Positions 14,118 to 40,942 of a stretch of DNA of 64,000 bases are shown here, in pieces (positions within the stretch are counted from its first letter, which is position 1; each line of letters starts with the position of its first letter). Source of the DNA: Actinomycetes bacterium (lineage in GTDB: Bacteria; Armatimonadota; SYMT01). The notes under the pieces are model-generated. The model ran no database searches. It worked only from the letters and a program-made list of their open reading frames with translations, and was not told the origin of the DNA. Location of the stretch: NCBI GenBank assembly GCA_031426395.1, contig JANPLG010000182.1:6984-70983 (forward strand), read 5' to 3'. Position numbers and translations under genes: made by a program.

Positions 14118-15620
14118 TCACTTTGGCTCGCTTCTCAACGCCGTCTCCCCCTTCGCGCTGACCGTTGCCTCCGCAGTACGGGCGCTTGAGCCCGCCAGGG
14201 TGACCCGGTACCGGCCGGGCCGCAGCGAGGTGTACCGCGCCACACCCTCGGCATCCGTCTCAAGATGGGTCCACCGGATGCCGCTCCAGCGCCCCGCCTC
14301 CTGAAGCTGCAATCCAATGCGCACCCGCGATCTGGCAGGAAGCCCGCGAATGACCAACGTCCCGCCGCCGGTTGCCTGGAACGAACGGGTCGGCTCCTGG
14401 CCTTCCGGGATCACTCCCGGCGGGAGATCACCGTCCACGCTCCGTGTCCAGAGCTCTTCGGGAGGCAGGTCAAGGTCACCCATCTCAAATACATGCCGAT
14501 CCGTGCTGGGCCGCACCTCGGCGTACCGATAGATGAGGGACTGGATTCGCTCCGTGACACCGCTGTAGATCGCCAGGTTGGAAAGGCGTCCGGGGATGGG
14601 ATTCCGATTGCCGCGTCGGACGTTCCAGGGCCAGTAGAACCGGCCGGAGGCGCCCTGCAGGATCGGAGCAACCCAGGGAGTCCGCTCCACGCTCTCCACA
14701 GAGAGGTGGTCGCCGCAGCGGATGTTGGTGTGGACCATCCACGCTTCTTCGTCGGCCCGCAGCGCCTCCCGCTCCTCCGGCGGGACCCGGCCCGCCACGG
14801 CGATCTCCACTGTGACATCGCCGGCGGTCTTCTCGGAGTTCGCCTGGGTCAATGGCAGGACGAATTCCGCTCGCTGGATCTTGACCTCTTCCTTGGGGAA
14901 CACCACGGTGACCTTCCGGAGCCTGCGGGACTCCTTCCCAAGCCACCCCAATTCGGCGACGGCGTTGTACTCCTGCCTCCGCACCCGTGTTCGGAAGGAG
15001 GACCGCACATCAAGGGGGGCCGCGTAATCCCAGCCGGCCGTGTCCACCGCACGCACCATGCACTCCCGGGAGATCTCTTCGGGACGCTCGAAATCGACCT
15101 GAAGGAAGAGGGTGCCGCTGTGCCCCAGCACTTGTTCCGGCAATCCCTTCCGGCTGCGGAGGTGCTTTGTCACGGCCAACCGGAACTTGCTGATGACGAT
15201 TTCCCGCCCTGCCAGTATCTCCGGGTCCGGTTTTGCCGGCTCGATGGGGAACTGCCGCGAGGGGTAGAAGGGGTATCCTCCGTGGCTGCTGTCGCCACGC
15301 CGGATGCTGTAGGCCTTCTCCAGATCCGCGAGGACCATGGAGAGCTGCGCGCCGGACCAGGAAAGGTCGACGCGGGGCCCCGTATCCGACCCCTCGTAGC
15401 GAATCTGCATCGGGATGCCGGTCTCACGGGAGAGCGCCAGCAGCGCCTCTCGAACGGTGGCCTTCTCCAGCCGCAGGGTGACCCTGGGCGGGGCGGCGCT
15501 GCCCGCCGTTGCGGATGCCAGCAGCCCCAGCAGCACGAGCGACGCCACTGCGCACCACCGCCGGAGCAGGTAGGGAGCTTGCAATCGGAGTTTCACCTGG
15601 CGGAGCGGCATCAGGCGCAT
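14118..15620 (-). CDS. Hypothetical secreted protein (signal peptide; C-terminal beta-sandwich, carboxypeptidase-regulatory-like)
   Basis: 500-aa ORF with a hydrophobic N-terminal leader. The C-terminal ...LRPGRYRVTLAGS... resembles CarboxypepD_reg-type domains. No catalytic motifs recognised. Confidence 0.5.
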   Translation of the reverse strand: MRLMPLRQVKLRLQAPYLLRRWCAVASLVLLGLLASATAGSAAPPRVTLRLEKATVREALLALSRETGIPMQIRYEGSDTGPRVDLSWSGAQLSMVLADLEKAYSIRRGDSSHGGYPFYPSRQFPIEPAKPDPEILAGREIVISKFRLAVTKHLRSRKGLPEQVLGHSGTLFLQVDFERPEEISRECMVRAVDTAGWDYAAPLDVRSSFRTRVRRQEYNAVAELGWLGKESRRLRKVTVVFPKEEVKIQRAEFVLPLTQANSEKTAGDVTVEIAVAGRVPPEEREALRADEEAWMVHTNIRCGDHLSVESVERTPWVAPILQGASGRFYWPWNVRRGNRNPIPGRLSNLAIYSGVTERIQSLIYRYAEVRPSTDRHVFEMGDLDLPPEELWTRSVDGDLPPGVIPEGQEPTRSFQATGGGTLVIRGLPARSRVRIGLQLQEAGRWSGIRWTHLETDAEGVARYTSLRPGRYRVTLAGSSARTAEATVSAKGETALRSEPK

Positions 15621-16120: not shown

Positions 16121-17272
16121 GTGGCTACGGCATCCGTTTCACAGGCAGACTGGTCCCTCCACCGCAAGGGGTTCATCGACCAGGAACGGCACAAGGAGAA
16201 GATCAAGGAGGCCATCAAGAACAACCTCCACGAGATCGTCTCCCGGGAAGACATCATCCTGTCCGACGGCCGTAGGGTGGTGAAGGTCCCCATCCGCAAC
16301 CTGGAGCAATACAAGTTCCGATTCGATGACAACAAGGGGGAGCGCGTCGGCCAGGGGCAGGGCGGCACGAAGGTCGGCGATGTGATCGGCCGCGATCCCT
16401 CTCCGGGCCAGGGGAAGGGCAAGGGCGAGGCGGGCGACCAAGCCGGAGTCGACTACTTCGAGGCGGAGGTGAACGTCGACGAACTGGCGGCGCTCATCTT
16501 CGAGGACCTCGGCCTGCCGAACCTGGAGGAGAAGCGGAGCCAGCAGTTGGAAGCGGAGGCGGTCCAGTTCACGGACATCCGGCGGACCGGCATCCTCTCC
16601 AACCTCGATAAGCGGCGCACCATCCGGGAGAACATCAAGCGGAACGCTATGAAGGGCAGCGCCCGCTTCGGCGACGTGCGCAACGAGGACCTCCGATTCA
16701 AGACCTGGGAGCCGACCATCCGGCACGAGTCGAACGCGGTCATCATCGCCATGATGGACGTCTCCGGCTCCATGGGGGAGTTCGAGAAGTACATCGCCCG
16801 CAGCTTCTACTTCTGGATGGTGCGCTTTCTCCGGACCAAGTACCAGAACGTGGAGATCGTCTTCATCTCCCACCACACGGAAGCGAAGATCGTCACCGAG
16901 GAAGAGTTCTTCACCAAGGGAGAGAGCGGCGGCACCCGGGTCAGCAGCGCCTACGCCCTCGCGATGGACGCCATCCAGAACCGCTACCCCGCCAGCGACT
17001 GGAACATCTACCCCTTCCACTTCAGCGACGGCGACAACATGTTCAGCGACAACCGCGTCTGCGTGGACCTGGTCAACCGCCTCCTCACCGTCTGCAACCT
17101 CTTCGGCTACGGGCAGATCAAGCAGGGCTGGTATCCCGCCGGCACCCTGATGAGCGTCTACAGCCAGGAGATCGACAACGACAAGTTCGTGGCGGTCACC
17201 ATTGAGGACAAGGAAGACGTCTATCCCGCGCTGCGCAAGTTCTTCGCTGTGAGGGATCCCATCCCCGCGTAG
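16121..17272 (+). CDS. yeaH: YeaH/YhbH-family protein (DUF444, vWA-like; partner of PrkA and SpoVR), GTG start
   Basis: 383 aa, characteristic N-terminus (…KGFIDQERHKEKIKEAI…), Gly-rich central segment and vWA-like MIDAS region (MMDVSGSM). Confidence 0.85.
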   Translation: MATASVSQADWSLHRKGFIDQERHKEKIKEAIKNNLHEIVSREDIILSDGRRVVKVPIRNLEQYKFRFDDNKGERVGQGQGGTKVGDVIGRDPSPGQGKGKGEAGDQAGVDYFEAEVNVDELAALIFEDLGLPNLEEKRSQQLEAEAVQFTDIRRTGILSNLDKRRTIRENIKRNAMKGSARFGDVRNEDLRFKTWEPTIRHESNAVIIAMMDVSGSMGEFEKYIARSFYFWMVRFLRTKYQNVEIVFISHHTEAKIVTEEEFFTKGESGGTRVSSAYALAMDAIQNRYPASDWNIYPFHFSDGDNMFSDNRVCVDLVNRLLTVCNLFGYGQIKQGWYPAGTLMSVYSQEIDNDKFVAVTIEDKEDVYPALRKFFAVRDPIPA

Positions 17273-17283
17273 CCGCCGGGGTC

Positions 17284-17324
17284 CAATTTGCAATTCTCAA
17301 TTGACAATTGCAAATTGACAATTC
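17284..17324. promoter_or_regulatory. AT-rich element with CAATTG/TTGCAA palindromes and two TTGACA hexamers in the yeaH-spoVR spacer
   Basis: Direct read: caatttgcaattctcaattgacaattgcaaattgacaatt. It shares the 12-mer AATTGCAAATTG with the element upstream of asnS (26221-26266). Confidence 0.4.
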
Positions 17325-17371
17325 GGAGTCGGGCTTACTTTCCCCAGATCATCCACCCACCACTCACCAAG

Positions 17372-20041
17372 ATGAACACCGAACTGGATCAGCTCACCCA
17401 GGCCATTGAGGAGATCTGGGAAGCGGGCACGGCCACCACCGGCCTCGACCCCTTCCCGATCCACTTTGAGATTGTGCCGGCCAGCGTGATGTATGAGGTC
17501 GGCGCGTACGGGGTGCCGGGGCGCTTCTCCCACTGGACCCATGGGAAGGCGTTCCACCAGATGAAGACCATGTATGACTATGGTCTTTCCAAGATCTATG
17601 AGCTGATCATCAACACCAACCCGGCGCAGGCGTTCCTGATGGAGGGGAACAGCCTGATCCAGAACAAGCTGGTGATCGCGCACGTCATCGGGCATTCGGA
17701 CTTCTTCAAGAAGAACGTCTATTTCTCCCACACGGACCGCCAGATGGCGGAGACCGCAGGCGTCACCGCAGAGCGCATCCGCGCCTACGAGCGGGAGCAC
17801 GGCGAGCGCGAGGTGGAGCAGTTCCTGGACGCCGTCCTCGCCATCCAGGAGCATATCGATCCGAACCTGCGGGTGGTCCGTGGTCCCCATAACCCGGCGG
17901 CTCCGGTGCCTGCCCGGGCGGGTGACTACGACGACCTGCTGGGCGCAAAGCCAGAAGTGAAGAAGCCACTTGACCAGGATGGTCGGACGCTCATGGCACC
18001 GGAGAAGGACCTTCTCCACTTCCTGATGCACCACTCGCCCATCTTGAACCGCAACGAAGACAAGTGGAAGACGGACATCCTCAGCATCGTCCGAAACGAG
18101 ATGCTCTACTTCCTGCCGCAGATGCAGACGAAGACGATGAACGAGGGCTGGGCCTGCGCGACCGGCGAGAGTCTGTTGGCCACGGAGAATGGTTTACTTC
18201 GCTTCAGCGATCTTTACGAGCAACGGCGCAAGATCAAGGTGGGGGGAGGCGGCGCTGGTGCGGTGCACCAGATTACGGACTTCCACCACGAGAGCCAGGT
18301 ACCCACGCTGCGAATCACCACCCGCCGCGGATACACCATCGAAGGGGCGTTGCGGCACCGCGTGCGAATGGCGGACGGCTCCTGGAGTTTCCTCGAGGCA
18401 TGTCAGCAGGGCGACGCCATCGCGCTTGCGATGGGTACCGAGGTTTGGGCTCAGGAACCTGTTCCCCTAACCTGTGAAGCGGCACCCAAAGATGTGACCC
18501 TGCACGACGTTGCGGAGGCGGCAGGAACGTCGCTTTGGACCGTCCTTCGCTTCCGGGATGGCATGAAGACGCGCAAGGACGTTGAGATCGCTCAGGCGCT
18601 CACCACCTTAGGCTATGTGGATGGCCGCGAGGGAAAGGTCATCCCCAGTAGGCGCGAGCTTACCCCACCTGCTCATTTGAATGAGGCGATGGCCCATGTT
18701 CTTGGTAGCTTTGTTGGCGACGGAAACGTCACCAAGTCGGGAATTTGCATTACCTGTGGCGACGAGGATTATGCGCGGTCACTGGCCGACCTTGCAGGCA
18801 ACGTCTTCGGGATTCCGGTCACTCTTCGCGATGATGCCACCACCACCGGTCCTCGCTTCAGGATCGAACTCCACTCAAGAGATCTGCTGCGTCTGCTTGA
18901 GAACCTCGGGATCGACCTGAAGGCTAAGGCACCGGGGAAGTCCGTGCCCTGGTGCGTCCTGCAGTCGCCGCGCCCGGTGGTGGTGGCATTCCTCGCTGGA
19001 TACTTCGATGCGGATGTCTATGCGGGAGAGCACGGGATCATCCTGAGTTCCGCGAGTTCGGAGTTGGTGCGCACAGTACAGATCCTGCTCCTGAACTTCG
19101 GCATTCTCTCCACGCAGCGCCGAAAGCCGGATGGCTGCACGCACCTCGAGATCAAAGGAAGGTCTGCAGAGCGGTTCGTGAGCGAAGTCGGATTCCGCAT
19201 GGAGCGAAAGCAACGAGCGGCGGAGACCTATGTTCGGGAACGACGCTGGTTCAAGCGAGAGGATCCCATTGATGAGATTGTGAAGATCGAGGTCGGGACA
19301 GCGGACGTCTTCGACATCACCGTGGATGAGGTCCATGCCTACGTTGCGAATGGCCTTGTACACCACAACAGCTACTGGCACAGCCGCATCCTCCGGGAGA
19401 TGGACATCACCCCGGAGGAGCACATCGAGTTCACGCGGCTCCACTCCAGCGTGCTCTCCCCCTCGCCGCGAGGGACCTCCATCAACCCCTACTACGTCGG
19501 GTTCAAGATCTTCGAGGACATCGAGCGACGCTGGAACGGCGACCTCACCCCGGACGAGCGTCGCGAGTACCGGGAGCAGAACCACGGCCGCGAGTGGCCC
19601 CACCAGGGCCGTGGCCGCGCCAAGATGTTCGAAGTTCGAGAGTTGGAGAACGACGTCTCCTTCCTGCGGAACTACCTCACCAAGGGGCTGGTGGATGAGC
19701 TGGACATGTACATCTACCGGAAGGAAGGCGATGAGTGGGTGGTGGTGGAGAAGGACTGGCGGCGCATCCGCGACATGATCGTGGAGAGCATGACCAACTT
19801 CGGCTACCCGTACCTCACGGTGGAGGATGGTGATTACCACCGCGCCCAGGAGCTATACCTCAAGCACAACTTCGATGGGCGCGAGCTGGATCAGCACTAC
19901 GCCTTCCGCACCATGCGCTACATCCACCGCCTCTGGGGCCGCCCCATCCACCTGGAGTCGCTGGTGGACGGCCAACCCACCGTCTGGACCTTCGACGGCG
20001 AGAGGGAGCTGGTGGACGGCATCGCACCGGGGGCGGACTGA
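17372..20041 (+). CDS. spoVR: SpoVR-family protein containing an in-frame intein (extein 17372-18154 + 19370-20041)
   Basis: SpoVR-like N- and C-terminal regions (…HWTHGKAFHQMKTMYDYGLSKIYEL…, …SYWHSRILREM…). Start set at MNTELDQ, because the upstream 28 codons cover the AT-rich repeat. Confidence 0.85.
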   Translation: MNTELDQLTQAIEEIWEAGTATTGLDPFPIHFEIVPASVMYEVGAYGVPGRFSHWTHGKAFHQMKTMYDYGLSKIYELIINTNPAQAFLMEGNSLIQNKLVIAHVIGHSDFFKKNVYFSHTDRQMAETAGVTAERIRAYEREHGEREVEQFLDAVLAIQEHIDPNLRVVRGPHNPAAPVPARAGDYDDLLGAKPEVKKPLDQDGRTLMAPEKDLLHFLMHHSPILNRNEDKWKTDILSIVRNEMLYFLPQMQTKTMNEGWACATGESLLATENGLLRFSDLYEQRRKIKVGGGGAGAVHQITDFHHESQVPTLRITTRRGYTIEGALRHRVRMADGSWSFLEACQQGDAIALAMGTEVWAQEPVPLTCEAAPKDVTLHDVAEAAGTSLWTVLRFRDGMKTRKDVEIAQALTTLGYVDGREGKVIPSRRELTPPAHLNEAMAHVLGSFVGDGNVTKSGICITCGDEDYARSLADLAGNVFGIPVTLRDDATTTGPRFRIELHSRDLLRLLENLGIDLKAKAPGKSVPWCVLQSPRPVVVAFLAGYFDADVYAGEHGIILSSASSELVRTVQILLLNFGILSTQRRKPDGCTHLEIKGRSAERFVSEVGFRMERKQRAAETYVRERRWFKREDPIDEIVKIEVGTADVFDITVDEVHAYVANGLVHHNSYWHSRILREMDITPEEHIEFTRLHSSVLSPSPRGTSINPYYVGFKIFEDIERRWNGDLTPDERREYREQNHGREWPHQGRGRAKMFEVRELENDVSFLRNYLTKGLVDELDMYIYRKEGDEWVVVEKDWRRIRDMIVESMTNFGYPYLTVEDGDYHRAQELYLKHNFDGRELDQHYAFRTMRYIHRLWGRPIHLESLVDGQPTVWTFDGERELVDGIAPGAD
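18155..19369 (+). mobile_element. Intein (405 aa) with a LAGLIDADG homing-endonuclease domain, inserted in SpoVR between NEGWA and SYWH
   Basis: Block A CATGESLL, with Cys1 following extein ...MNEGWA. LAGLIDADG motifs LGSFVGDGNV and LAGYFDADVYAG. Block F VFDITVDEVHAYVANG. Block G ends LVHHN followed by +1 Ser. Confidence 0.85.
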
Positions 20042-20252
20042 CCGCCGTCCGTGAGCGAAGATCTCATGCGTCTACGAGCCGCCATCGGAGATGGCTTCGC
20101 CGCCCCAAGGGCGACGGTCCTGCGGTTGGACGAGCCAGAGAATCGCATTCGAAAGAATTGCGGCTTTTCTCGGGTTTGACCAGGCGCCGACGGGGTTATC
20201 ATGGAGTCAGAAGGATTAAGCGTGTTACTCCTTCTTGATCAGCCAGTGCTTG

Positions 20253-20283
20253 GCCGCCCGCAAGGGCGGCTTTTTTCTTTTTC
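20253..20283 (+). terminator. Rho-independent terminator downstream of spoVR
   Basis: GCCGCCCG-CAA-GGGCGGC hairpin followed by TTTTTTCTTTTTC. Confidence 0.7.
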
Positions 20284-23068: not shown

Positions 23069-25006
23069 CTAGTTGAATTGGACTCTTCGGTTCCGAAAAC
23101 CTGGCCCAGCGTTAAGCCCGCTGAGCCCGAATCGCAGTTCCCCCAACCCCGCTCAGCCGCCCAGTGGGAGGACGCGGGCCTGCAGGCTTGACAGCCCTCC
23201 TCGCCCGTACATCGTTCGTTTGATGGCCTTGAGGCGGTTCACGGTGCCCTCCAGCACGCCGTTGCTCCAGGGCTCCACCAATCCCGTGAGCACCGCGCTC
23301 CAGTCCTGCCGGAGGCCGGTGCAGAAGGACTTCAGCGGGCCGATCCCGCTGGCCCTCACGCGCTCGATCCACTGCTCGAGCGCGCGGGCCAGCGCCTCAC
23401 GCCCCAGCGGCTCCTCGCCGGTGTTCCCCCGCTCCCGGGCCAGCAAGCGAAGGAATTCGAGAGCCAGTTCCGTTGCCCGCCGCGCCTTGGGCGCCTGAAG
23501 GAAGAACTCCGCGGCGAAGATCGCCGCCCGGGCCGCGCGCCCGGACTTCGGGGACGGCTTGCCCAGGCCGGCGTGGAGGAGGCTCCACATCGCGTCCTTC
23601 AGCCGCCGGGCCTTGGCCGGCGGCGGCTTGGCCGGGTGGCGGGGCGGGCGGACCCCTCCCGCCGCCACAAGCGCGCGCCAGCGCCGGCGGACCCACTTCT
23701 CCACTGCGGAAGGGCCGTCCGGATAGCCCAGGGCCTGGAGCTCCCGCCACAGCTCCCCCGGTCCCCGGCACCCTTCCTCCCACCGGCGCTCGAGGCGCGG
23801 CAGATGGGGCGTCAGGGCCGTCGGCGCCGCGCGGTAGTCCTTCCTCTCGCGGAACGCGTCGCTGGCCATGAGGCGCGTGGCCGTCACGTGGTGGATGCCC
23901 AGCGCCTGGGCGATATGCTCCGCATCGGAGCCGCAAGCTTGCAGGCGCTTGACGGCTTGATACAGATCCAGGCGACGCTGGCGGCTGGCCCTGCTCCGCT
24001 CCCGCTCCGGCCCCGAAGAGCCATAACCGGGGAACCCATCATCCTGCTCCTGCTCCTGCTCCTGCCCCGGGGCCGGTGCCGAGCTCACCGCTCCGCCCGG
24101 GAGCGCCGACGCTGCGGGGGCCGCCGTTGATCCTGCTTCCTCCTGCCGAGCCAACCGCTCCGCCCGGGTGGCGGCCTCGATGGCGGCGGCCCACTGGCCC
24201 TCCTCCTGCCGGAGGTGGTCCAGCAGGGCCTGGGTCACTCCCTGCGCCAGATGGAACGGATCCGATCCCTGCGCGGACTGCGGCGCGCCCTCCCGGATCG
24301 CGGCGGCGTAGGTCTTGCTCCCGTCGCGGCTGACATGCTTGATCTCCGGGTGCCCGCGAAGCCAGGCGGCCAGCGTGGCCTGCTCACGATCCGGCAGGAG
24401 GCCGATCGGCTCATGGGTGTCGAGATCCACCAGCAGCGTGCCGTGGCGCCTCCCTTTGGCGAACGCGAAGTCATCCACCCCGAGGTGCGTCACCTTCCGC
24501 GCCGCCGCGCCGCGGTGGGAGAGGCTCCGCTGGAGTTCGCGGAGGACGGTGTCCGGGCTCACGCCAAAGCCCAGCTCGGCGGAAACAACCGCCCCGCGCT
24601 CTCCGCCCAGGCTGTGGCCGAGCAGCCGGAGCCATTTCACCACGTCGCACGCCCGGCGGCCATGGGGGGCGAGGAAACCGGGCAGCCGCTCGGTGAAGAT
24701 CCGCTGCGGGCACGTGGGGACATGGCAGAACCACTTGCGCGACTCGATGTCGGCGCGGAGGGGACAGCCGGCCCACGGGCGCAGCACGGCCACGCGGCGG
24801 TACCGGCTGTGGACCTTGGTGGAAAGCTGGTGGCAGCGCGGGCAGGCGGCTGCGGCGCGGCGGGTGGCGACGTCCAGGCGCAGGGCGCCATCGATCACGA
24901 AGGCTCGCAAGACGCGGACAAGCTCGGGCGCCGGATGCAGGGCAGGGGGTTGCATGCCTCCCCTTTCCCGCCTTGACACTTCTTGACACTGAGTCTCACC
25001 AACTTG
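23069..25006 (-). mobile_element. ISL3-family insertion sequence (about 1.94 kb), approximate ends
   Basis: Contains the ISL3 transposase ORF. Imperfect terminal inverted repeats at 23069-23090 (CTAGTTGAATTGGACTCTTCGG) and 24985-25006 (reverse complement CAAGTTGGTGAGACTCAGTGTC). It interrupts a beta-propeller gene. Confidence 0.55.
23153..24979 (-). CDS. ISL3-family transposase (608 aa, with a low-complexity Ala/Pro/QEQEQEQ insertion)
   Basis: N-terminal zinc-ribbon CPRCH, DDE region (HLGVDDFAFAKGRRHGTLLVDLDTHEPIGLLPDRE) and C-terminal ISL3 signature WSNGVLEGTVNRLKAIKRTMYGR. Confidence 0.85.
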   Translation of the reverse strand: MSRRERGGMQPPALHPAPELVRVLRAFVIDGALRLDVATRRAAAACPRCHQLSTKVHSRYRRVAVLRPWAGCPLRADIESRKWFCHVPTCPQRIFTERLPGFLAPHGRRACDVVKWLRLLGHSLGGERGAVVSAELGFGVSPDTVLRELQRSLSHRGAAARKVTHLGVDDFAFAKGRRHGTLLVDLDTHEPIGLLPDREQATLAAWLRGHPEIKHVSRDGSKTYAAAIREGAPQSAQGSDPFHLAQGVTQALLDHLRQEEGQWAAAIEAATRAERLARQEEAGSTAAPAASALPGGAVSSAPAPGQEQEQEQDDGFPGYGSSGPERERSRASRQRRLDLYQAVKRLQACGSDAEHIAQALGIHHVTATRLMASDAFRERKDYRAAPTALTPHLPRLERRWEEGCRGPGELWRELQALGYPDGPSAVEKWVRRRWRALVAAGGVRPPRHPAKPPPAKARRLKDAMWSLLHAGLGKPSPKSGRAARAAIFAAEFFLQAPKARRATELALEFLRLLARERGNTGEEPLGREALARALEQWIERVRASGIGPLKSFCTGLRQDWSAVLTGLVEPWSNGVLEGTVNRLKAIKRTMYGRGGLSSLQARVLPLGG

Positions 25007-35051: not shown

Positions 35052-36707
35052 CTACACCTCCAGGATCACGGGCACCACCATCGGCCGACGGCCGGTCAAC
35101 TGTTGGAAGAGCTTGTTGACCGTGCGCCGCACATCCTGCCGGATGGCGCCCCAGTCCCGACCGCCCTCTTCCGGCAGAGATTCCAGGAACTGGAGCACGC
35201 GCTCCTTGGCCCGGTCGTAGACCACTTCCTGCTCCGTGGTGAGTACCGCACCGCGTGAGATGCAGTCCGGCCCGGCAATGACCCGTCCGGTGCTGCGGTC
35301 CACGGTGCAGACCACCACGAAGATGCCGTCCTGCGAGAGGTGGTACCGGTCCCGGAGCACCTCGTCCTCGATGTCGCTGATGCCGGTGCCGTCCACAATC
35401 ACGACCCCGGAGGCTACCTTCTCCGTGATGACCGCTTCCTCTCGGTCCAGCTCCAGCACGTCGCCGTTCTGCAGCTTGATGACCGTGTAGCCCATCTTCT
35501 CGCCCATGCGGCGCCACAGTTCCTGGTGCCGGTACTCACCGTGGACCGGGATGATGTAAGAGGGGCGGGTGAGGTTGGCCATCATCTTCAGCTCTTCCTG
35601 GTTTCCATGCCCGGAGACGTGGATGCGCGGGTAGAGCGGCGTGTGGATGACGTTGGCGCCCTGCCGGAAGAGGTTGTTGATGACTCGCCAGACGGTATCC
35701 TCATTCCCCGGAATGGCGGTGGAGGAGAGGATGACAGTGTCGCCCGCCTGGATCTTCACCTGGCGATGGTCGTTCATCGCCATGCGGGTCAGCGCGGAGA
35801 GCGGCTCCCCCTGACTGCCGGTGCTGATGATCGCGATCTCGTGCGGCGGGTAGAGGTTCACGTCATCCAGGCGGATCATCGTGTCTTCGCCGACCTTCAG
35901 GTACCCCAACTCCCGCGCCACTTCCACGTTGCTCAGCATGCTGCGGCCGGCGAGGGCCACGCGGCGGCCGTGCTTCCTCGCAACATCGATCACCTGCTGG
36001 ACGCGCCAGAGGTTGGAGGAGAAGGTGGCGACCAGCACCCTGCCGGGGGCGTCCTTGAACACCTGGTCCAGCGCCTCGCCCACCACCTGCTCGGAGGGGA
36101 CGTAGCCGGGCTTGTCCACGTTGGTGGAGTCGGTCACCAGGGCCAGCACGCCCTCCGCGCCAGCACGGGCCAGCGCGCCGAGGTCCGCAGGCTTGCCGTC
36201 CACCGGGGTCTGATCGAATTTGAAGTCGCCGGTGTGGACCACGTTGCCGGCGGCGGAGCGCAGCACCAGGCTCACGGAGTCCGGGACGCTGTGGTTGACG
36301 TGGACAAACTCCACGTTGAACGGTCCCACCTGCACCCGCTCTCCAGCGTCCACGAGGTGCCAGTCGGTATCGGCCCAAAGGCCATGCTCGTGGAGCTTGC
36401 GCCGGATCAGGCCCAGGGTCAGCCGGGTGGCCCAGATGGGGACCGGGAGCTGCTTCAGGACGTACGGCAGCGCGCCGATGTGGTCTTCATGAGCGTGGGT
36501 GAGGACGAACCCCAGCACGCGATCGCGGTTCTCCAGCAGGTAGGAGATGTCGGGAATGAGGATGTCGACCCCAAGCTGGTGGTCTTCCGGGAACATGAGC
36601 CCGCAGTCAACAACCAGGATCTGGCCGTCGACCTCATAGGCCGTCATGTTCTTGCCGATTTCGGTGGCGCCGCCCAATGGGATGATGCGTAGACGAGAGG
36701 ATGGCAT
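35052..36707 (-). CDS. rnj: Ribonuclease J (beta-CASP metallo-beta-lactamase RNase)
   Basis: 551 aa. HAHEDH motif, beta-CASP and C-terminal domain, strong family resemblance throughout. Confidence 0.9.
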   Translation of the reverse strand: MPSSRLRIIPLGGATEIGKNMTAYEVDGQILVVDCGLMFPEDHQLGVDILIPDISYLLENRDRVLGFVLTHAHEDHIGALPYVLKQLPVPIWATRLTLGLIRRKLHEHGLWADTDWHLVDAGERVQVGPFNVEFVHVNHSVPDSVSLVLRSAAGNVVHTGDFKFDQTPVDGKPADLGALARAGAEGVLALVTDSTNVDKPGYVPSEQVVGEALDQVFKDAPGRVLVATFSSNLWRVQQVIDVARKHGRRVALAGRSMLSNVEVARELGYLKVGEDTMIRLDDVNLYPPHEIAIISTGSQGEPLSALTRMAMNDHRQVKIQAGDTVILSSTAIPGNEDTVWRVINNLFRQGANVIHTPLYPRIHVSGHGNQEELKMMANLTRPSYIIPVHGEYRHQELWRRMGEKMGYTVIKLQNGDVLELDREEAVITEKVASGVVIVDGTGISDIEDEVLRDRYHLSQDGIFVVVCTVDRSTGRVIAGPDCISRGAVLTTEQEVVYDRAKERVLQFLESLPEEGGRDWGAIRQDVRRTVNKLFQQLTGRRPMVVPVILEV

Positions 36708-37645: not shown

Positions 37646-40600
37646 GTGGACCGAGGAACGGGCGAGGAGTTTGCAGAAAACGTTGCAGTCGTTCCTATCC
37701 ATTTCACTTCTGACCATTTCACTTCCGATTGTCCCCTTGCTGTGACGGATCCACGCTGCCAGATTGATTTGCTGGGCGCACTGCGCGTGGTGCGCGGCGC
37801 GGAGTCGGTCACCCGCTTTTCCACGCGGAAGAATGCCGCGCTGCTGGCCTACCTGGCGCACCGCCTGGGACGACCGCAGCCGCGAGAAGCCCTGATCGAT
37901 CTGCTATGGCCGGACGCCGATCTCGAACTGGGGCGCCGCAGCCTGCGGACCGCCCTGACCAGCCTCCGGCACCAGTTGGAGCCGCCTGGGGTGCCGCAGG
38001 GCTCCGTCCTGCTTGCGGACCGCGCCACCGTTGCCCTGAACCCTGCAGTAGTCACCACGGATATCCGCGCCTTTGAGGCGGCACTGGCCTCCGCGAAGAG
38101 CGCAAGCCGGATCGAGGAGAAACGACAGCGGCTTTCCGACGCCCTGACGCACTACGGCGGCACGCTCCTTCCCGGTCACTACGAAGAGTGGGTCCCCTCA
38201 GAAGCGGCGCGCCTTTCGGAGCTGCACCTGGGGGCGCTGCGCGAGCTGACCGGCATTCTAGAGCAGTGCGGCGATCTTTCCGGCGCGCTGCAGCACGCAC
38301 GACAGGCGGTCACCGTGGAGCCGCTGCGGGAAGCGCCGCACGGGGAGTTGATCCGGCTCCTCATCCAGAGCGGCCAGGAACCCGAGGCGCGGCGTCAGTG
38401 GGCGGCTCTTGGGACGCTTCTCCGTGAGGAGCTGGGCACCGTTCCTAGCGCATCCCTCCAGAAGTTGGTCGATGGCTGGCTCCAGTCTGGACCGGCCCCC
38501 GCTCCCGCAACGCTGCGGACCGGCCTGCCGCCGGTGAGCGCGGCTCAGGCATTCCCCATAGACCCAGGGTCGGCTCCCCCGGAGATGCCACCCCTACCTT
38601 CGGAGTGGACGCGCTTCTTCGGTCGCGTGGACGAACTGGGCCGCCTGCGGCAATGGCTGGCCGCAGCTGCGGTAGCGGAATCGGGGGAGCGGCTAGTTAC
38701 CCTCAGTGGGCCCGGCGGCGTGGGCAAGACCCGGCTGGCGCTCCGCCTTGCGTCCGCGCTTAGGGAAGAGTACGGGGGCCGCGTGGTCTGGGTGGCCCTT
38801 GCAGATCTCTCGGACCCGCGCCTCATCCCGGACGCGCTGGCCCGGGCCCTAGGGCTGCCGCCGGCGCAGGGCGATCCTCTGGCCCAGGTGGCGGAGTTCC
38901 TGGGGGATGGCCCGTGTCTGCTGGTGGTGGACAACCTGGAACAGCTCGGCGCAGGCGCTGCCCCAAGCGTGCAGAGCCTGCTGTCCCGCCTCCCGCAGAG
39001 CCGCATCCTTGCGACTTCCCGCACGCGCCTATTGCTGCCCGGTGAGCGGGAGTTTCCGCTGACTCCTCTCCCCGTTACTCCAGACGGGGAGTCGACAGGG
39101 GAAGGGGAACTTGCTCAGGTTGCGGGATTGCCGAGCGTTCAGTTGTTCGTCGACCGCGCCCAGGCGGTCCGGCCGGACTTTCAGGTCACCGCGCGCAACG
39201 CCGGCGATTTGGTCCGCCTGGCCACGCGGCTGGAAGGAATCCCCCTAGCACTGGAGCTGGCAGCAGCGCGTGCCTCGGTGCTCACGCCGGCGCAGATGGT
39301 GGAGCGGCTGGAGCACCGCCTTGAGTGGCTGGAGACGCGGAAGGCCGACCGCCCCGAGCGCCACCGAAGCATGCGGGCGGCCGTTGAGTGGAGCTACGAA
39401 CTGCTGGGGGCCGGACTCCGAGGGCTGTTCCGCCGCCTGGCCGTCTTCCGCGGCGGTTGGTCGCTGGGGGCAGCGGAAGCGGTGGCTGTGGACGCCTCCC
39501 TCACAGCAGTACTCTCCCCCCTCGACGCGCTGGCGCAGCTTCGGGCCTCGTCGCTCGTCCAGGTGGACGCTCCCGCCACGTCCGGCGCGGAGCCCCGCTT
39601 TCGGATGCTGGAATCGCTGCGCGAGTTCGCTCTGGAGCAGCTCTCACCGGAGGAGCTGACCGCCGCCTACCAAGCCCACCTTGGGTGTTTCCTCGACCAG
39701 GCGGAGGAAGCGGCCGCGGCGATGGACACGCCCGGCCAGCAGGAAGCGATGGACCTCCTGGAATCCGAGCGGGACAACCTGCGTGCGGCGCTGGCATGGT
39801 CGCGCGAGGCCGAGCCGCTCCTGGCACTCCGATTGGCTGGCGCCCTTGGCCGCTTCTGGCGCGTGGGCGGCTATCAGCGGGAAGGTTTCGAATGGCTGGA
39901 ATCCGTGCTCGCCACCACCGAGCGGGAGGCCACGGCCAGGGAGCTCCAATCCGGGGACGCGCTCCGTTGGAAGGCCCGCGCGCTGCATGGAGCAGGCGGG
40001 ATCGCTTTTGATCGCTTGGACTATCCTGCGGCTGAACGCTACTTCAATAGTGCCGTTTCCCTCTGGGAAGCACTCGTGGAATGGGAGCAGGCCGGCATGA
40101 GCCGGGTCGGGCTGGCCATGATGCACTACCAACTCGGCGACCTCCAGCGATCCCGAGAGCAGTACGAGAAGCTGGTGCCACTGGTCAGGGAGGGCTCCGA
40201 CCTCTCCCTCCGCGCCCGCGTCATCGGCGGGCTAGGGCAGATCGCCTACATCCTCCAGGATGCGGATCCGGAGCCGCTATACCTGGAGGCCCTCGCCTGC
40301 CAGCAGGAGCGGGGCAACGTCCAGGGCCAGGGGGCGCTCTACCACGCGCTCGGCAATCTTTTCGAGCGGAACGGCGACCGGCTGGAAGCACGGCGTCACC
40401 ACGAGCTGGCCCTTGCGTGCCGGAAGGAGGCGCGATTCCGGCAGGGCATCATCTACTCCCACTTCAGCCTCTCCGCGCTGGCGAGTGGCGAGGGTGACTT
40501 CGAGCGGGCCCGGCCCCACTGCGAAGAGGGGCTTCGCCTGGCTCGCGAGATCGGGGATGAGTGGTCGATCGGCATGGGACTGAAGTGGCTCGCCAGCATC

Positions 40601-40942
40601 CACCAGGGTGCCGGGGAGTATGCCGAAGCGGAGCGGCTCTGCCGGGAGGGCCTGCGCCTCCAATGGAAGGCGCGGGACATGCAGCATATGTCCTACCTGC
40701 TGCGCGGGCTGGCGGATGCGGCGTTGGCCCTGGGCCGATTGGAGAATGCGGTGACCCTCCACGCTGCCACCGACCTGCTCCAGTCCGAGCTTGGCGGAGC
40801 GATGTCGACCGCTCCTCCGGTCGCCAGCAACCTGCGCGAGGAGGCCCGGAGCCGGCTGGGCGACCGCCGCTACGATGCGGCCACGGAGCGCGGGACCCGG
40901 ATGCCGATTGAAGAGGTGGTCCAACTCGCGCTTGAAGGGTAG
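37646..40942 (+). CDS. SARP/AfsR-like transcriptional regulator: OmpR-type winged-helix + BTAD + NB-ARC ATPase (LSGPGGVGKTRLA) + C-terminal TPR repeats; alternative GTG start at 37742
   Basis: IDLLGALRVV...LLAYLAHRLGRPQPREALIDLLWPD (wHTH), BTAD region (…GHYEEWVPSEAARLSELHL…LIRLL…), P-loop and GxP (LVVDNLEQL) of NB-ARC, several TPR-like repeats. Confidence 0.8.
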   Translation: MDRGTGEEFAENVAVVPIHFTSDHFTSDCPLAVTDPRCQIDLLGALRVVRGAESVTRFSTRKNAALLAYLAHRLGRPQPREALIDLLWPDADLELGRRSLRTALTSLRHQLEPPGVPQGSVLLADRATVALNPAVVTTDIRAFEAALASAKSASRIEEKRQRLSDALTHYGGTLLPGHYEEWVPSEAARLSELHLGALRELTGILEQCGDLSGALQHARQAVTVEPLREAPHGELIRLLIQSGQEPEARRQWAALGTLLREELGTVPSASLQKLVDGWLQSGPAPAPATLRTGLPPVSAAQAFPIDPGSAPPEMPPLPSEWTRFFGRVDELGRLRQWLAAAAVAESGERLVTLSGPGGVGKTRLALRLASALREEYGGRVVWVALADLSDPRLIPDALARALGLPPAQGDPLAQVAEFLGDGPCLLVVDNLEQLGAGAAPSVQSLLSRLPQSRILATSRTRLLLPGEREFPLTPLPVTPDGESTGEGELAQVAGLPSVQLFVDRAQAVRPDFQVTARNAGDLVRLATRLEGIPLALELAAARASVLTPAQMVERLEHRLEWLETRKADRPERHRSMRAAVEWSYELLGAGLRGLFRRLAVFRGGWSLGAAEAVAVDASLTAVLSPLDALAQLRASSLVQVDAPATSGAEPRFRMLESLREFALEQLSPEELTAAYQAHLGCFLDQAEEAAAAMDTPGQQEAMDLLESERDNLRAALAWSREAEPLLALRLAGALGRFWRVGGYQREGFEWLESVLATTEREATARELQSGDALRWKARALHGAGGIAFDRLDYPAAERYFNSAVSLWEALVEWEQAGMSRVGLAMMHYQLGDLQRSREQYEKLVPLVREGSDLSLRARVIGGLGQIAYILQDADPEPLYLEALACQQERGNVQGQGALYHALGNLFERNGDRLEARRHHELALACRKEARFRQGIIYSHFSLSALASGEGDFERARPHCEEGLRLAREIGDEWSIGMGLKWLASIHQGAGEYAEAERLCREGLRLQWKARDMQHMSYLLRGLADAALALGRLENAVTLHAATDLLQSELGGAMSTAPPVASNLREEARSRLGDRRYDAATERGTRMPIEEVVQLALEG
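37700..37725 (+). promoter_or_regulatory. Direct repeat CATTTCACTTC x2 (15-bp spacing) just upstream of the probable GTG start of the SARP regulator
   Basis: Direct read: catttcacttctgaccatttcacttc. Confidence 0.2.

What the first reader, a model, noticed from the sequence alone, without database searches (positions are those of the whole stretch)
18155..19369. Intein with a LAGLIDADG homing endonuclease inserted in SpoVR
The spoVR ORF is about 400 aa longer than typical SpoVR proteins. The extra segment begins with Cys immediately after extein ...MNEGWA. It contains two LAGLIDADG motifs (LGSFVGDGNV, LAGYFDADVYAG) and block F (VFDITVDEVHAYVANG). It ends ...LVHHN followed by Ser (SYWHS...). 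These are the canonical intein splice junctions. The insertion interrupts the most conserved SpoVR motif (NEGWA/SYWH), the kind of site inteins home to. I do not recall a SpoVR intein allele being described, and its host is the sporulation/stress-type PrkA-YeaH-SpoVR system.
Basis: partly seen in the sequence, partly recalled or inferred. Interest (0 to 1): 0.85.

Follow-up and report, generated by a model that had tools for sequence, protein, structure and literature searches.

The report
SpoVR intein with homing endonuclease
The spoVR gene here really is interrupted by a self-splicing intein that carries a LAGLIDADG homing endonuclease, but this intein allele is already catalogued and is common across many bacterial phyla and haloarchaea, so it is a correct but fairly ordinary find.

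Summary
Bases 18155-19369 encode a 405-aa insert (Cys1 ... His-Asn | Ser+1) that splits the SpoVR motif NEGWA|SYWH. Sequence profiles, a confident AlphaFold model (pLDDT 92) and Foldseek matches to the TliVMA, PI-PfuI and PI-SceI inteins show a class 1 intein with a nested double-motif LAGLIDADG endonuclease. Intein-less SpoVR proteins read straight through the site without a gap.

It is not a new allele. A 2025 preprint states that InBase lists a SpoVR intein from Chloroflexus aurantiacus. I found the same-site intein in C. aggregans DSM 9485, in more than 200 protein clusters, and in at least ten phyla including haloarchaea.

Among the window's closest relatives, alleles with and without the intein are interleaved in the extein tree. 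Empty sites match the window's flanks at 26-28 of 30 nt, the nuclease residues are conserved, and the intein's GC3 is 0.70 against 0.86-0.92 in the host gene. Together these fit a homing cycle that is active, or was until recently.

Two smaller points. The family carries a LacI-type DNA-binding headpiece between the splicing and nuclease domains, which I found described nowhere. The window also lacks prkA, which is present in the relatives' prkA-yhbH-spoVR operons.

Splicing and cleavage are inferred, not tested.

The parts
16121..17272 (+). yhbH/yeaH (DUF444), the gene upstream of spoVR
   Evidence: TIGR02877 spore_yhbH E 8e-167, above its cut-off. Pfam DUF444 E 3e-110.
17372..18154 (+). SpoVR N-extein (261 aa), ending ...QMQTKTMNEGWA
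   Evidence: Pfam SpoVR stretch 4-270. Intein-less homologues match query residues up to 261/262 and resume at 667.
18155..19369 (+). Complete intein, 405 aa: Cys1 ... His404-Asn405
   Evidence: AlphaFold model with pLDDT 92.2 and pTM 0.88. Foldseek top hits are the TliVMA, PhoVMA, PI-PkoII, PI-PfuI and PI-SceI inteins, E 3e-24 to 3e-13.
18155..18484 (+). N-terminal lobe of the splicing (Hint) domain, intein aa 1-110, with block A (Cys1) and block B (GALRH, His68)
   Evidence: Cys1 and the block B His are invariant in 120/120 homologues. The block B 'Thr' position is Ala in 113/120. Beta-strand-rich in the model.
18491..18628 (+). LacI-type DNA-binding headpiece (HTH plus third helix), intein aa about 113-158
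   Evidence: A family profile hits the Lac repressor headpiece 1lcc, residues 4-50, at E 5.6e-7. Single-sequence Pfam LacI scores 21.8 bits, below its cut-off of 27. The model has helices at 116-123, 127-134 and 142-151.
18650..19234 (+). Double-motif LAGLIDADG homing endonuclease domain, intein aa 166-360
   Evidence: Pfam LAGLIDADG_3 in two stretches. PDB sequence hits to VMA intein endonucleases. Foldseek hits to I-DmoI and I-Tsp061I. Mean pairwise identity 0.61 with almost no indels.
18701..18730 (+). First LAGLIDADG motif, LGSFVGDGNV (Asp189 of the intein)
   Evidence: The Asp is conserved in 116/120 homologues.
18992..19027 (+). Second LAGLIDADG motif, LAGYFDADVYAG (Asp285 and Asp287 of the intein)
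   Evidence: Asp285 in 120/120 and Asp287 in 115/120 homologues.
19235..19369 (+). C-terminal lobe of the splicing domain with blocks F and G (DVFDITVDEVHAYVANGLVHHN)
   Evidence: TIGR01443 above its cut-off. The block F Asp and His, the penultimate His and the terminal Asn are invariant in 120/120.
19370..20041 (+). SpoVR C-extein (223 aa plus stop), starting with Ser+1 (SYWHSRILREMD)
   Evidence: Ser+1 in 120/120. SpoVR_C domain. Contiguous with NEGWA in intein-less proteins.
20252..20281 (+). Terminator-like GC-rich hairpin plus T run, downstream of spoVR
   Evidence: Consensus scan only. The number of sites found is no greater than in shuffles. Weak evidence.

Best explanation
This is a canonical class 1 intein with a nested LAGLIDADG homing endonuclease, inserted in frame in spoVR between Ala261 and Ser of the NEGWA|SYWH motif.

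Inferred mechanism:
- The 889-aa precursor is translated.
- Cys1 makes the N-S acyl shift.
- Ser+1 attacks in the transesterification step.
- Asn405, assisted by His404, cyclises and releases the 405-aa intein.
- An O-N shift then yields a 484-aa SpoVR with an intact NEGWASYWH motif.

The free intein is a site-specific DNA endonuclease. Its two LAGLIDADG Asp residues, probably helped by the nested LacI-type headpiece, would recognise and cut the roughly 30-bp uninterrupted sequence in intein-free spoVR alleles, so that repair copies the intein in (homing).

Shown here: the architecture, the fold, the conserved catalytic residues, the gap-free junction, the patchy distribution and the conserved empty sites. 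Inferred: actual splicing, actual cleavage and the role of the headpiece.
For: - Profiles: SpoVR split in two, LAGLIDADG_3 and intein_Cterm above their cut-offs.
- Fold: AlphaFold pLDDT 92.2. The best PDB matches are endonuclease-bearing inteins, E 3e-24 to 3e-13.
- Junction: intein-less SpoVR read MNEGWA|S[YF]WH with no gap.
- Catalytic residues invariant in 120/120 homologues: A-1, C1, block B His, block F Asp and His, His-Asn, Ser+1. The LAGLIDADG Asp residues are present in 116, 120 and 115 of 120.
- Constraint: the endonuclease domain is as conserved as the exteins (0.61 against 0.62-0.64), and intein length is 404-408 aa in 117/120.
- Mobility: homologous inteins sit at the identical site in at least ten phyla, including haloarchaea. 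Alleles with and without the intein are interleaved in the extein tree, down to sister pairs. The closest relatives, at 73-77% identity, are intein-free. Their empty sites match the window's flanks at 26-28 of 30 nt. Intein GC3 is 0.70 against 0.86-0.92 in the exteins and yhbH.
Against: - No experiment: splicing and cleavage are inferred from sequence.
- Pfam Intein_splicing is just below its gathering score (31.6 against 35.8), and no N-terminal splicing model (TIGR01445) hit was reported.
- The block B Thr is Ala in this family. That is tolerated in some inteins, by my own knowledge, but is untested here.
- Intein and extein identities are correlated (r 0.66), so much of the inheritance is vertical.
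- The extein tree is a quick NJ tree without bootstrap support.
- A few family members have lost nuclease residues or part of the domain, so activity in this particular copy is not guaranteed.
Confidence: 0.9

Rival explanations
1. The intein splices but is no longer mobile. The LAGLIDADG domain is retained, perhaps for folding or for a host-beneficial role, but no longer cleaves DNA, and the element persists by vertical descent only.
For: Intein and extein divergence are correlated (r 0.66). Several lineages carry decayed endonuclease domains: Chloroflexus at 275-277 aa, L070 at 266 aa, and P0018. That shows decay does happen in this family.
Against: In this copy both catalytic Asp residues are intact, and they are conserved in 115-120 of 120 relatives. 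The domain is as constrained as the host protein. Occupied and empty alleles are interleaved among close relatives. Empty sites are conserved. GC3 is still unameliorated.
Confidence: 0.25
2. The insert is a native, non-splicing accessory domain of a long SpoVR isoform.
For: More than 200 protein clusters share the long architecture.
Against: Orthologues at 73-78% extein identity lack the insert exactly, with a gap-free NEGWA|SYWH junction. All intein splicing residues are invariant. The fold is Hint plus LAGLIDADG. The insert splits the most conserved SpoVR motif.
Confidence: 0.02
3. The intein is dead and spoVR is effectively a pseudogene in this genome, consistent with the missing prkA partner.
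For: prkA is absent from the 64-kb window, although relatives have prkA-yhbH-spoVR. An ISL3 transposase lies 3 kb downstream. One relative, L116, has a frameshifted copy.
Against: The ORF is intact over 889 codons. All splicing residues are present. Extein GC3 of 0.86-0.92 is typical of expressed host genes such as yhbH. prkA may simply lie elsewhere in the genome.
Confidence: 0.05
4. The insert is a bacterial intein-like (BIL) or Hedgehog-type autoprocessing domain rather than a true intein.
For: It shares the Hint fold.
Against: By my own knowledge of the family, BIL domains lack nested homing endonucleases, sit in variable regions of non-conserved proteins and usually lack the canonical C-terminal His-Asn plus +1 nucleophile. 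Here His-Asn|Ser, a LAGLIDADG domain and a highly conserved insertion site are all present.
Confidence: 0.01

Closest known systems
SpoVR intein of Chloroflexus: the InBase entry 'SpoVR-like protein, Chloroflexus aurantiacus J-10-fl' as cited in bioRxiv 10.1101/2025.01.02.630785, and C. aggregans DSM 9485 ACL25091.1
   Same: Same host protein and the identical insertion site (…ILNEGWA|C…FINHN|SYWH), with homologous splicing lobes (E 1e-18 to 1e-23 against the window's intein).
   Different: The Chloroflexus copies are 275-277 aa. Their in-frame endonuclease has decayed: LAGLIDADG_3 scores only E 0.037, and the headpiece and catalytic Asp residues are lost. The window's copy is full length at 405 aa. 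The preprint says the C. aurantiacus intein has an antisense LAGLIDADG gene; I found none in Chloroflexus sp. L074. I could not retrieve the J-10-fl sequence itself.
Endonuclease-bearing archaeal and yeast inteins with solved structures: TliVMA and PhoVMA (7qss, 7qsu, 7qst), PI-PkoII (2cw7), PI-PfuI (1dq3), PI-SceI (1vde)
   Same: Hint splicing domain with a nested double-motif LAGLIDADG endonuclease. Foldseek E 3e-24 to 3e-13 with TM 0.5-0.65, and sequence E 1.6e-11 to TliVMA.
   Different: A different host protein (SpoVR rather than V-ATPase or DNA polymerase) and only 13-21% identity. The accessory DNA-binding unit here is a LacI-type headpiece, rather than the DRR of PI-SceI or the stirrup domain of PI-PfuI (that comparison rests on my own knowledge).
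Monomeric LAGLIDADG enzymes (I-DmoI, I-Tsp061I) and WhiA
   Same: The nuclease core superposes at TM about 0.7 on the target. WhiA is a precedent for a LAGLIDADG scaffold joined to an HTH domain.
   Different: Those are free-standing or intron-encoded, or in WhiA's case a non-cleaving transcription factor. Here the domain is nested in an intein, and the HTH lies on its N-terminal side.
Lac repressor / LacI-PurR family DNA-binding headpiece
   Same: The intein-family profile aligns over the whole headpiece (1lcc residues 4-50, E 5.6e-7), including the VTLxDVAxxAGVSxxTV recognition-helix region.
   Different: There is no LacI sugar-binding core or dimerisation context; the unit is a roughly 46-aa insert inside an intein. 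DNA binding is untested.

Membership tests
Class 1 intein | Cys/Ser nucleophile at intein position 1 | tested here: met
   Cys1 at 18155-18157. Cys in 120/120 homologues.
Class 1 intein | Block B TxxH motif | tested here: inconclusive
   The His is invariant (120/120), but the Thr position is Ala in the window and in 113/120 homologues. The effect on splicing is unknown.
Class 1 intein | Blocks F and G with penultimate His and C-terminal Asn | tested here: met
   DVFDITVDEVHAYVANGLVHHN. The Asp, His and His-Asn are invariant. TIGR01443 scores above its cut-off.
Class 1 intein | Ser/Thr/Cys at C-extein position +1 | tested here: met
   Ser+1 in 120/120. Intein-less SpoVR have Ser, Thr, Cys or occasionally Ala at this position.
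Class 1 intein | Hint fold | tested here: met
   AlphaFold pLDDT 92.2. Foldseek probability 1.00 to solved inteins.
Class 1 intein | Insert absent from orthologues, with a gap-free extein junction at a conserved site | tested here: met
   NEGWA|S[YF]WH is contiguous in about 100 intein-less proteins and in loci L121 and L122.
Class 1 intein | Protein splicing demonstrated | not testable with these tools
   Needs expression of the precursor and detection of the ligated exteins.
LAGLIDADG homing endonuclease (double-motif, monomeric) | Two LAGLIDADG helices, each with a conserved acidic residue | tested here: met
   LGSFVGDGNV and LAGYFDADVYAG. The Asp residues are conserved in 116, 120 and 115 of 120. 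Pfam LAGLIDADG_3 E 3e-21.
LAGLIDADG homing endonuclease (double-motif, monomeric) | Alpha-beta-beta-alpha-beta-beta-alpha core fold | tested here: met
   Foldseek hits to I-DmoI and I-Tsp061I, TM 0.66-0.73 on the target.
LAGLIDADG homing endonuclease (double-motif, monomeric) | Site-specific cleavage of the intein-less allele | not testable with these tools
   Indirect support only: interleaved occupied and empty alleles, and conserved empty sites.
SpoVR family (PF04293) | SpoVR and SpoVR_C profile matches across the spliced sequence | tested here: met
   PF04293 E 2e-121 and PF24755 E 1.5e-11. The spliced product is 73-77% identical to 480-aa SpoVR proteins.
prkA-yhbH(yeaH)-spoVR(ycgB) gene cluster | yhbH/yeaH adjacent to spoVR | tested here: met
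   16121-17272, TIGR02877 above its cut-off.
prkA-yhbH(yeaH)-spoVR(ycgB) gene cluster | prkA/yeaG adjacent | tested here: not met
   tblastn of the relatives' PrkA against the window gives no hit. None of the nine ORFs of 600 aa or more scanned has a PrkA domain. Relatives L121 and L122 have prkA directly upstream.
Previously catalogued SpoVR intein allele (InBase, Chloroflexus) | Same insertion site and homologous intein | tested here: met
   Chloroflexus sp. L074, C. aggregans P0537 and strain Y-396-1 P0530 share NEGWA|C…HN|SYWH and are homologous to the window's intein. The J-10-fl sequence itself was not retrieved, so identity with the InBase entry is inferred at genus level.
LacI-family HTH headpiece | Profile match over the HTH and the third helix | tested here: met
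   Family profile against 1lcc, E 5.6e-7. The single sequence is below the Pfam cut-off (21.8 against 27 bits). Three helices in the model.
LacI-family HTH headpiece | Sequence-specific DNA binding | not testable with these tools
   Needs EMSA or footprinting with the empty spoVR site.

The most novel reading that the evidence does not exclude
The LacI-type headpiece is conserved in this intein family from Acidobacteriota to haloarchaea. It may be a previously undescribed accessory DNA-recognition module that extends or anchors target-site recognition by the LAGLIDADG nuclease. Alternatively, it may give the excised intein a second role as a DNA-binding regulator. More speculatively, splicing of this intein could be conditional, gating SpoVR activity in the starvation and stress pathway it belongs to.
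Probability: 0.2. Interest if true: 0.5.

Novelty: new member of a known kind. Interest (0 to 1): 0.3.

Why it matters
Mainly as an annotation correction. This protein and hundreds like it are labelled only 'SpoVR family protein', and their lengths and domain calls mislead unless the intein is recognised.

Beyond that, the SpoVR intein is a well-populated natural data set for studying the homing cycle outside the usual replication and ATPase hosts. Full-length, decayed and empty alleles are interleaved among close relatives and across two domains of life.

The insertion point also marks NEGWA|SYWH as a probable functional core of SpoVR, a protein whose biochemical function is still unknown and which has no solved structure.

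The nested LacI-type headpiece is a small but possibly new example of modular target recognition in an intein endonuclease, and could be of use for nuclease engineering if confirmed.

Tried and rejected
- Source organism: exact look-ups of P0001 and of the window's YhbH found no contig on record. The organism is therefore only inferred to be Armatimonadota, from P0295/L122 (75% protein and 80% nt identity).
- Antisense ORF 18875-19840 (321 aa) inside the intein: no Pfam hit. Treated as a high-GC artefact.
- Antisense LAGLIDADG gene reported for the Chloroflexus SpoVR intein: the antisense ORFs of L074 gave no Pfam hit.
- prkA in the window: not found.
- Solved SpoVR structure, to place the insertion site: none exists.
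- Literature: 'intein' with 'stage V sporulation' gave 0 papers. PrkA/YeaH with intein gave nothing relevant. The 2016 survey of intein hosts does not mention sporulation or SpoV anywhere in its text, including its top-15 table, and its supplements are not held. LacI/HTH with inteins gave nothing relevant.
- One phrase search failed on a word limit.
- I did not search with the intein alone for relatives in other host proteins, because SpoVR copies would have filled the list.
Full report
**Observation.** The + strand ORF ending at 20041 encodes an 889-aa protein when started at the ATG at 17372. They begin CATGESLL directly after ...QMQTKTMNEGWA. They contain LGSFVGDGNV and LAGYFDADVYAG. They end DVFDITVDEVHAYVANGLVHHN, followed by SYWHSRILREMD. 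Pfam finds SpoVR in two separated stretches (E 2e-121), SpoVR_C, and LAGLIDADG_3 (E 3e-21, above the gathering score). Intein_splicing scores just under its cut-off, 31.6 against 35.8 bits. NCBIfam finds intein_Cterm (TIGR01443) above its cut-off, plus partial hits to the intein portions of many intein-bearing equivalogs such as GyrA, RNR, DnaB, RFC and Tes. The upstream gene at 16121-17272 is yhbH/yeaH (TIGR02877, E 8e-167).

**What it is.**
- An AlphaFold model of the insert, built on a 53-sequence alignment, is confident: mean pLDDT 92.2 and pTM 0.88.
- Foldseek against the PDB returns endonuclease-bearing inteins first: TliVMA and PhoVMA (7qss, 7qsu, 7qst; E 3e-24 to 3e-20), PI-PkoII, PI-PfuI and PI-SceI. 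I-DmoI-type LAGLIDADG enzymes and WhiA follow for the nuclease core. By sequence the nearest solved relative is also the TliVMA intein (E 1.6e-11).
- In an alignment of 120 long SpoVR proteins, these residues are invariant: Ala-1, Cys1, the block B His, the block F Asp and His, the penultimate His, the terminal Asn, and Ser+1.
- The LAGLIDADG Asp residues are present in 116, 120 and 115 of the 120 sequences.
- The block B Thr is Ala in 113 of 120, a family peculiarity of unknown consequence.
- Intein length is 404-408 aa in 117 of 120.
- The nuclease domain is as conserved as the host protein, with mean pairwise identity 0.61 against 0.62-0.64 and almost no indels.

**The junction.** Intein-less SpoVR proteins read MNEGWA|SIWH, |SYWH, |TYWH and |SLWH with no gap. 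Among the roughly 100 intein-less relatives, the motif is NEGWA followed by S[YF]WH in most. In the search of 50%-identity representatives, short hits (440-540 aa) match the query in two stretches that break at residue 261/262 and resume at 667. About three dozen of the best 150 representatives are 800 aa or longer. The predicted spliced product is a 484-aa SpoVR with an intact NEGWASYWH.

**Distribution and mobility.** I scanned one genome per GTDB species for the DNA pattern TKxxNEGWA-Cys.
- 59 hits are intein-less SpoVR with a native Cys at +1 (NEGWA|CFWH in Legionella, Halioglobus, Clostridium and others).
- 48 carry a cleanly delimited insert, C...H-N|S-x-W-H, at exactly this site.
- 13 could not be closed at first. 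Five of those proved to be the same intein ending HN|SYWE or HN|SYWQ: the haloarchaea L007, L052 (Halovenus salina) and L080 (Halosimplex marinum), Bipolaricaulota L076 and Fraserbacteria L107.
- Host taxa include Acidobacteriota (Pyrinomonadaceae), Armatimonadota (Chthonomonadaceae, Fimbriimonadales, Fervidibacter), Chloroflexota (Ktedonobacterales, Chloroflexaceae, Roseiflexus, Chloroflexus), Myxococcota, Planctomycetota (Gemmata, Fimbriiglobus), Longimicrobiaceae and others.
- All 48 delimited inserts match the window's intein: the full-length ones (about 360-414 aa) end to end at 28-58% identity (E 4e-44 to 4e-167), the shorter decayed ones over part of their length (E down to 4e-8).

With the spliced extein as query, the closest SpoVR relatives (73-77% identity, about 480 aa) are intein-free. 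One is labelled Armatimonadota. In a neighbour-joining extein tree, occupied and empty alleles are thoroughly interleaved. There are sister pairs such as P0317(none)/P0011(intein), P0343(none)/P0020 and P0024(intein), and P0293(none)/P0002(intein). This tree has no bootstrap support. An intein-less Acidobacteriota-type allele (P0145) is 78% identical to the spliced exteins of intein-bearing proteins.

The empty sites in the two closest relatives with DNA (L121, L122) match the window's flanks at 26 and 28 of the central 30 nt, against 77-80% identity over the whole extein CDS. GC3 is 0.70 in the intein, 0.86 and 0.92 in the exteins and 0.92 in yhbH. Intein and extein divergence are nevertheless correlated (r 0.66), so vertical descent dominates over short distances.

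Decayed versions also exist. Chloroflexus copies are 275-277 aa and retain only a remnant of the second LAGLIDADG helix region. Chthonomonadales L070 is 266 aa. P0018 lacks the LAGLIDADG_3 hit. Together these are the three states of the classical homing cycle: empty, occupied with a functional nuclease, and occupied with a decaying nuclease.

**Mechanism.** Inference from the established class 1 pathway:
1. Cys1 makes the N-S acyl shift.
2. Ser+1 carries out the transesterification.
3. Asn405 cyclises, assisted by His404.
4. An O-N shift gives mature SpoVR.
5. The released intein acts as a monomeric double-motif LAGLIDADG endonuclease on intein-free spoVR alleles.

The architecture, the residues and the population pattern are shown. 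Catalysis is not.

**Comparison with what is known.** A 2025 preprint (bioRxiv 10.1101/2025.01.02.630785) states that InBase holds an intein in the SpoVR-like protein of Chloroflexus aurantiacus J-10-fl. I could not retrieve that strain's sequence. However, Chloroflexus sp. L074, C. aggregans DSM 9485 (ACL25091.1) and Chloroflexus sp. Y-396-1 all carry an intein at the identical junction, and it is homologous to the window's. The window's own protein is already in NCBI (P0001, 100% identity), unnamed. More than 200 clusters at 90% identity with this architecture were listed in two searches. SpoVR is not among the top 15 bacterial intein hosts in the 2016 survey PMC4760082, and no other paper in the library mentions it. 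The element is therefore a new member of a catalogued but essentially unstudied intein allele. The preprint describes the Chloroflexus intein as having an antisense LAGLIDADG gene. I found no such signal in L074, only an in-frame remnant. The antisense ORF inside the window's intein has no family hit either.

**Side findings.**
- Intein residues about 113-158 form a three-helix unit. A profile of this segment from 25 diverse family members matches the Lac repressor headpiece over its whole length (1lcc residues 4-50, E 5.6e-7). The single sequence is sub-threshold in Pfam (21.8 against 27 bits). Several homologues carry a precomputed PF00356 hit. The module is present in the haloarchaeal and Bipolaricaulota copies, so it is ancestral to the family. 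I found no description of a LacI-type headpiece in an intein.
- prkA is absent from the 64-kb window, although both closest relatives have prkA-yhbH-spoVR. An ISL3 transposase lies at 23153-24979.
- The 99-nt yhbH-spoVR spacer is AT-rich, has reiterated CAATTG/TTGACAATTG motifs, and has no obvious Shine-Dalgarno sequence before the ATG.

**Verdict.** Novelty is low, because it is a further member of a known, widespread allele. Residual interest lies in the clean homing-cycle population structure across two domains of life, the nested LacI-type headpiece, and the pointer to SpoVR's functional core.

Noticed in passing
window 18491-18628 (intein aa about 113-158): A LacI-family DNA-binding headpiece is nested between the splicing lobe and the LAGLIDADG domain. 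The family profile hits the Lac repressor headpiece at E 5.6e-7. It is conserved in the bacterial and haloarchaeal copies, and I found no description of it in the searched literature.
   Followed up: yes
window 1-64000; compare L121 2645-4576 and L122 2610-4550: prkA is absent from the whole window (no tblastn hit), whereas the two closest intein-less relatives have a contiguous prkA-yhbH-spoVR operon. Upstream of yhbH the window instead has an unrelated 500-aa ORF on the minus strand (14118-15620) with no family hit.
   Followed up: partly
window 17273-17371: The yhbH-spoVR spacer is AT-rich in a 65% GC window and holds reiterated CAATTG/TTGACAATTG motifs (tccaatttgcaattctcaattgacaattgcaaattgacaattc). 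No clear Shine-Dalgarno sequence precedes the ATG at 17372. In relatives the spacer is 4-74 nt. It could be an operator or a remnant of something inserted.
   Followed up: no
window 18155-19369 compared with 17372-18154, 19370-20038 and 16121-17269: Third-position GC is 0.70 in the intein, against 0.86 and 0.92 in the exteins and 0.92 in yhbH. This is a compositional mark of foreign origin or weaker codon selection.
   Followed up: yes
window 23153-24979 (-): An ISL3-family DDE transposase (PF01610, E 3e-28) lies 3 kb downstream of spoVR. It may be related to the local loss of synteny with relatives.
   Followed up: partly
window 18347-18358 (intein aa 65-68, ALRH): The block B Thr of the canonical TxxH motif is Ala in this intein and in 113 of 120 relatives, while the His is invariant.
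   Followed up: partly
L001, L005, L020, L023, L044 and others (59 of 120 loci): Many intein-less SpoVR proteins (Legionella, Halioglobus and other Gammaproteobacteria; Clostridium with CFCH) have a native Cys right after NEGWA. A nucleophile-capable residue (Ser/Thr/Cys) is therefore usual at the insertion point even without an intein. Eight relatives have Ala there.
   Followed up: partly
L007, L052 (Halovenus salina), L059 (Halorubrum yunnanense), L080 (Halosimplex marinum): Haloarchaeal SpoVR-like proteins, which have a much longer C-extein, carry the same intein family at the same site. It is 36-39% identical to the window's intein and ends HN|S[YK]WE. This implies cross-domain transfer of the intein or of the gene.
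   Followed up: partly
L074, P0537, P0530 (Chloroflexus); L070 (Chthonomonadales); P0018: These are shortened inteins (266-291 aa, or about 346-365 aa) with decayed or partly deleted endonuclease domains at the same site, the decay stage of the homing cycle. I could not reproduce the preprint's statement that the Chloroflexus SpoVR intein has an antisense LAGLIDADG gene in L074.
   Followed up: partly
L116 (Acidobacteria MAG45): This SpoVR intein copy loses the reading frame after about 263 intein residues. It is either a frameshifted pseudogene or an assembly error.
   Followed up: no
window 37646-40942 (+), 35052-36707 (-), 54623-56872 (+): Other genes seen while looking for prkA: a BTAD/AAA/TPR (SARP/MalT-like) regulator of 1098 aa, RNase J, and a subtilase with fn3 and CarboxypepD_reg domains. 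None is linked to the finding.
   Followed up: no
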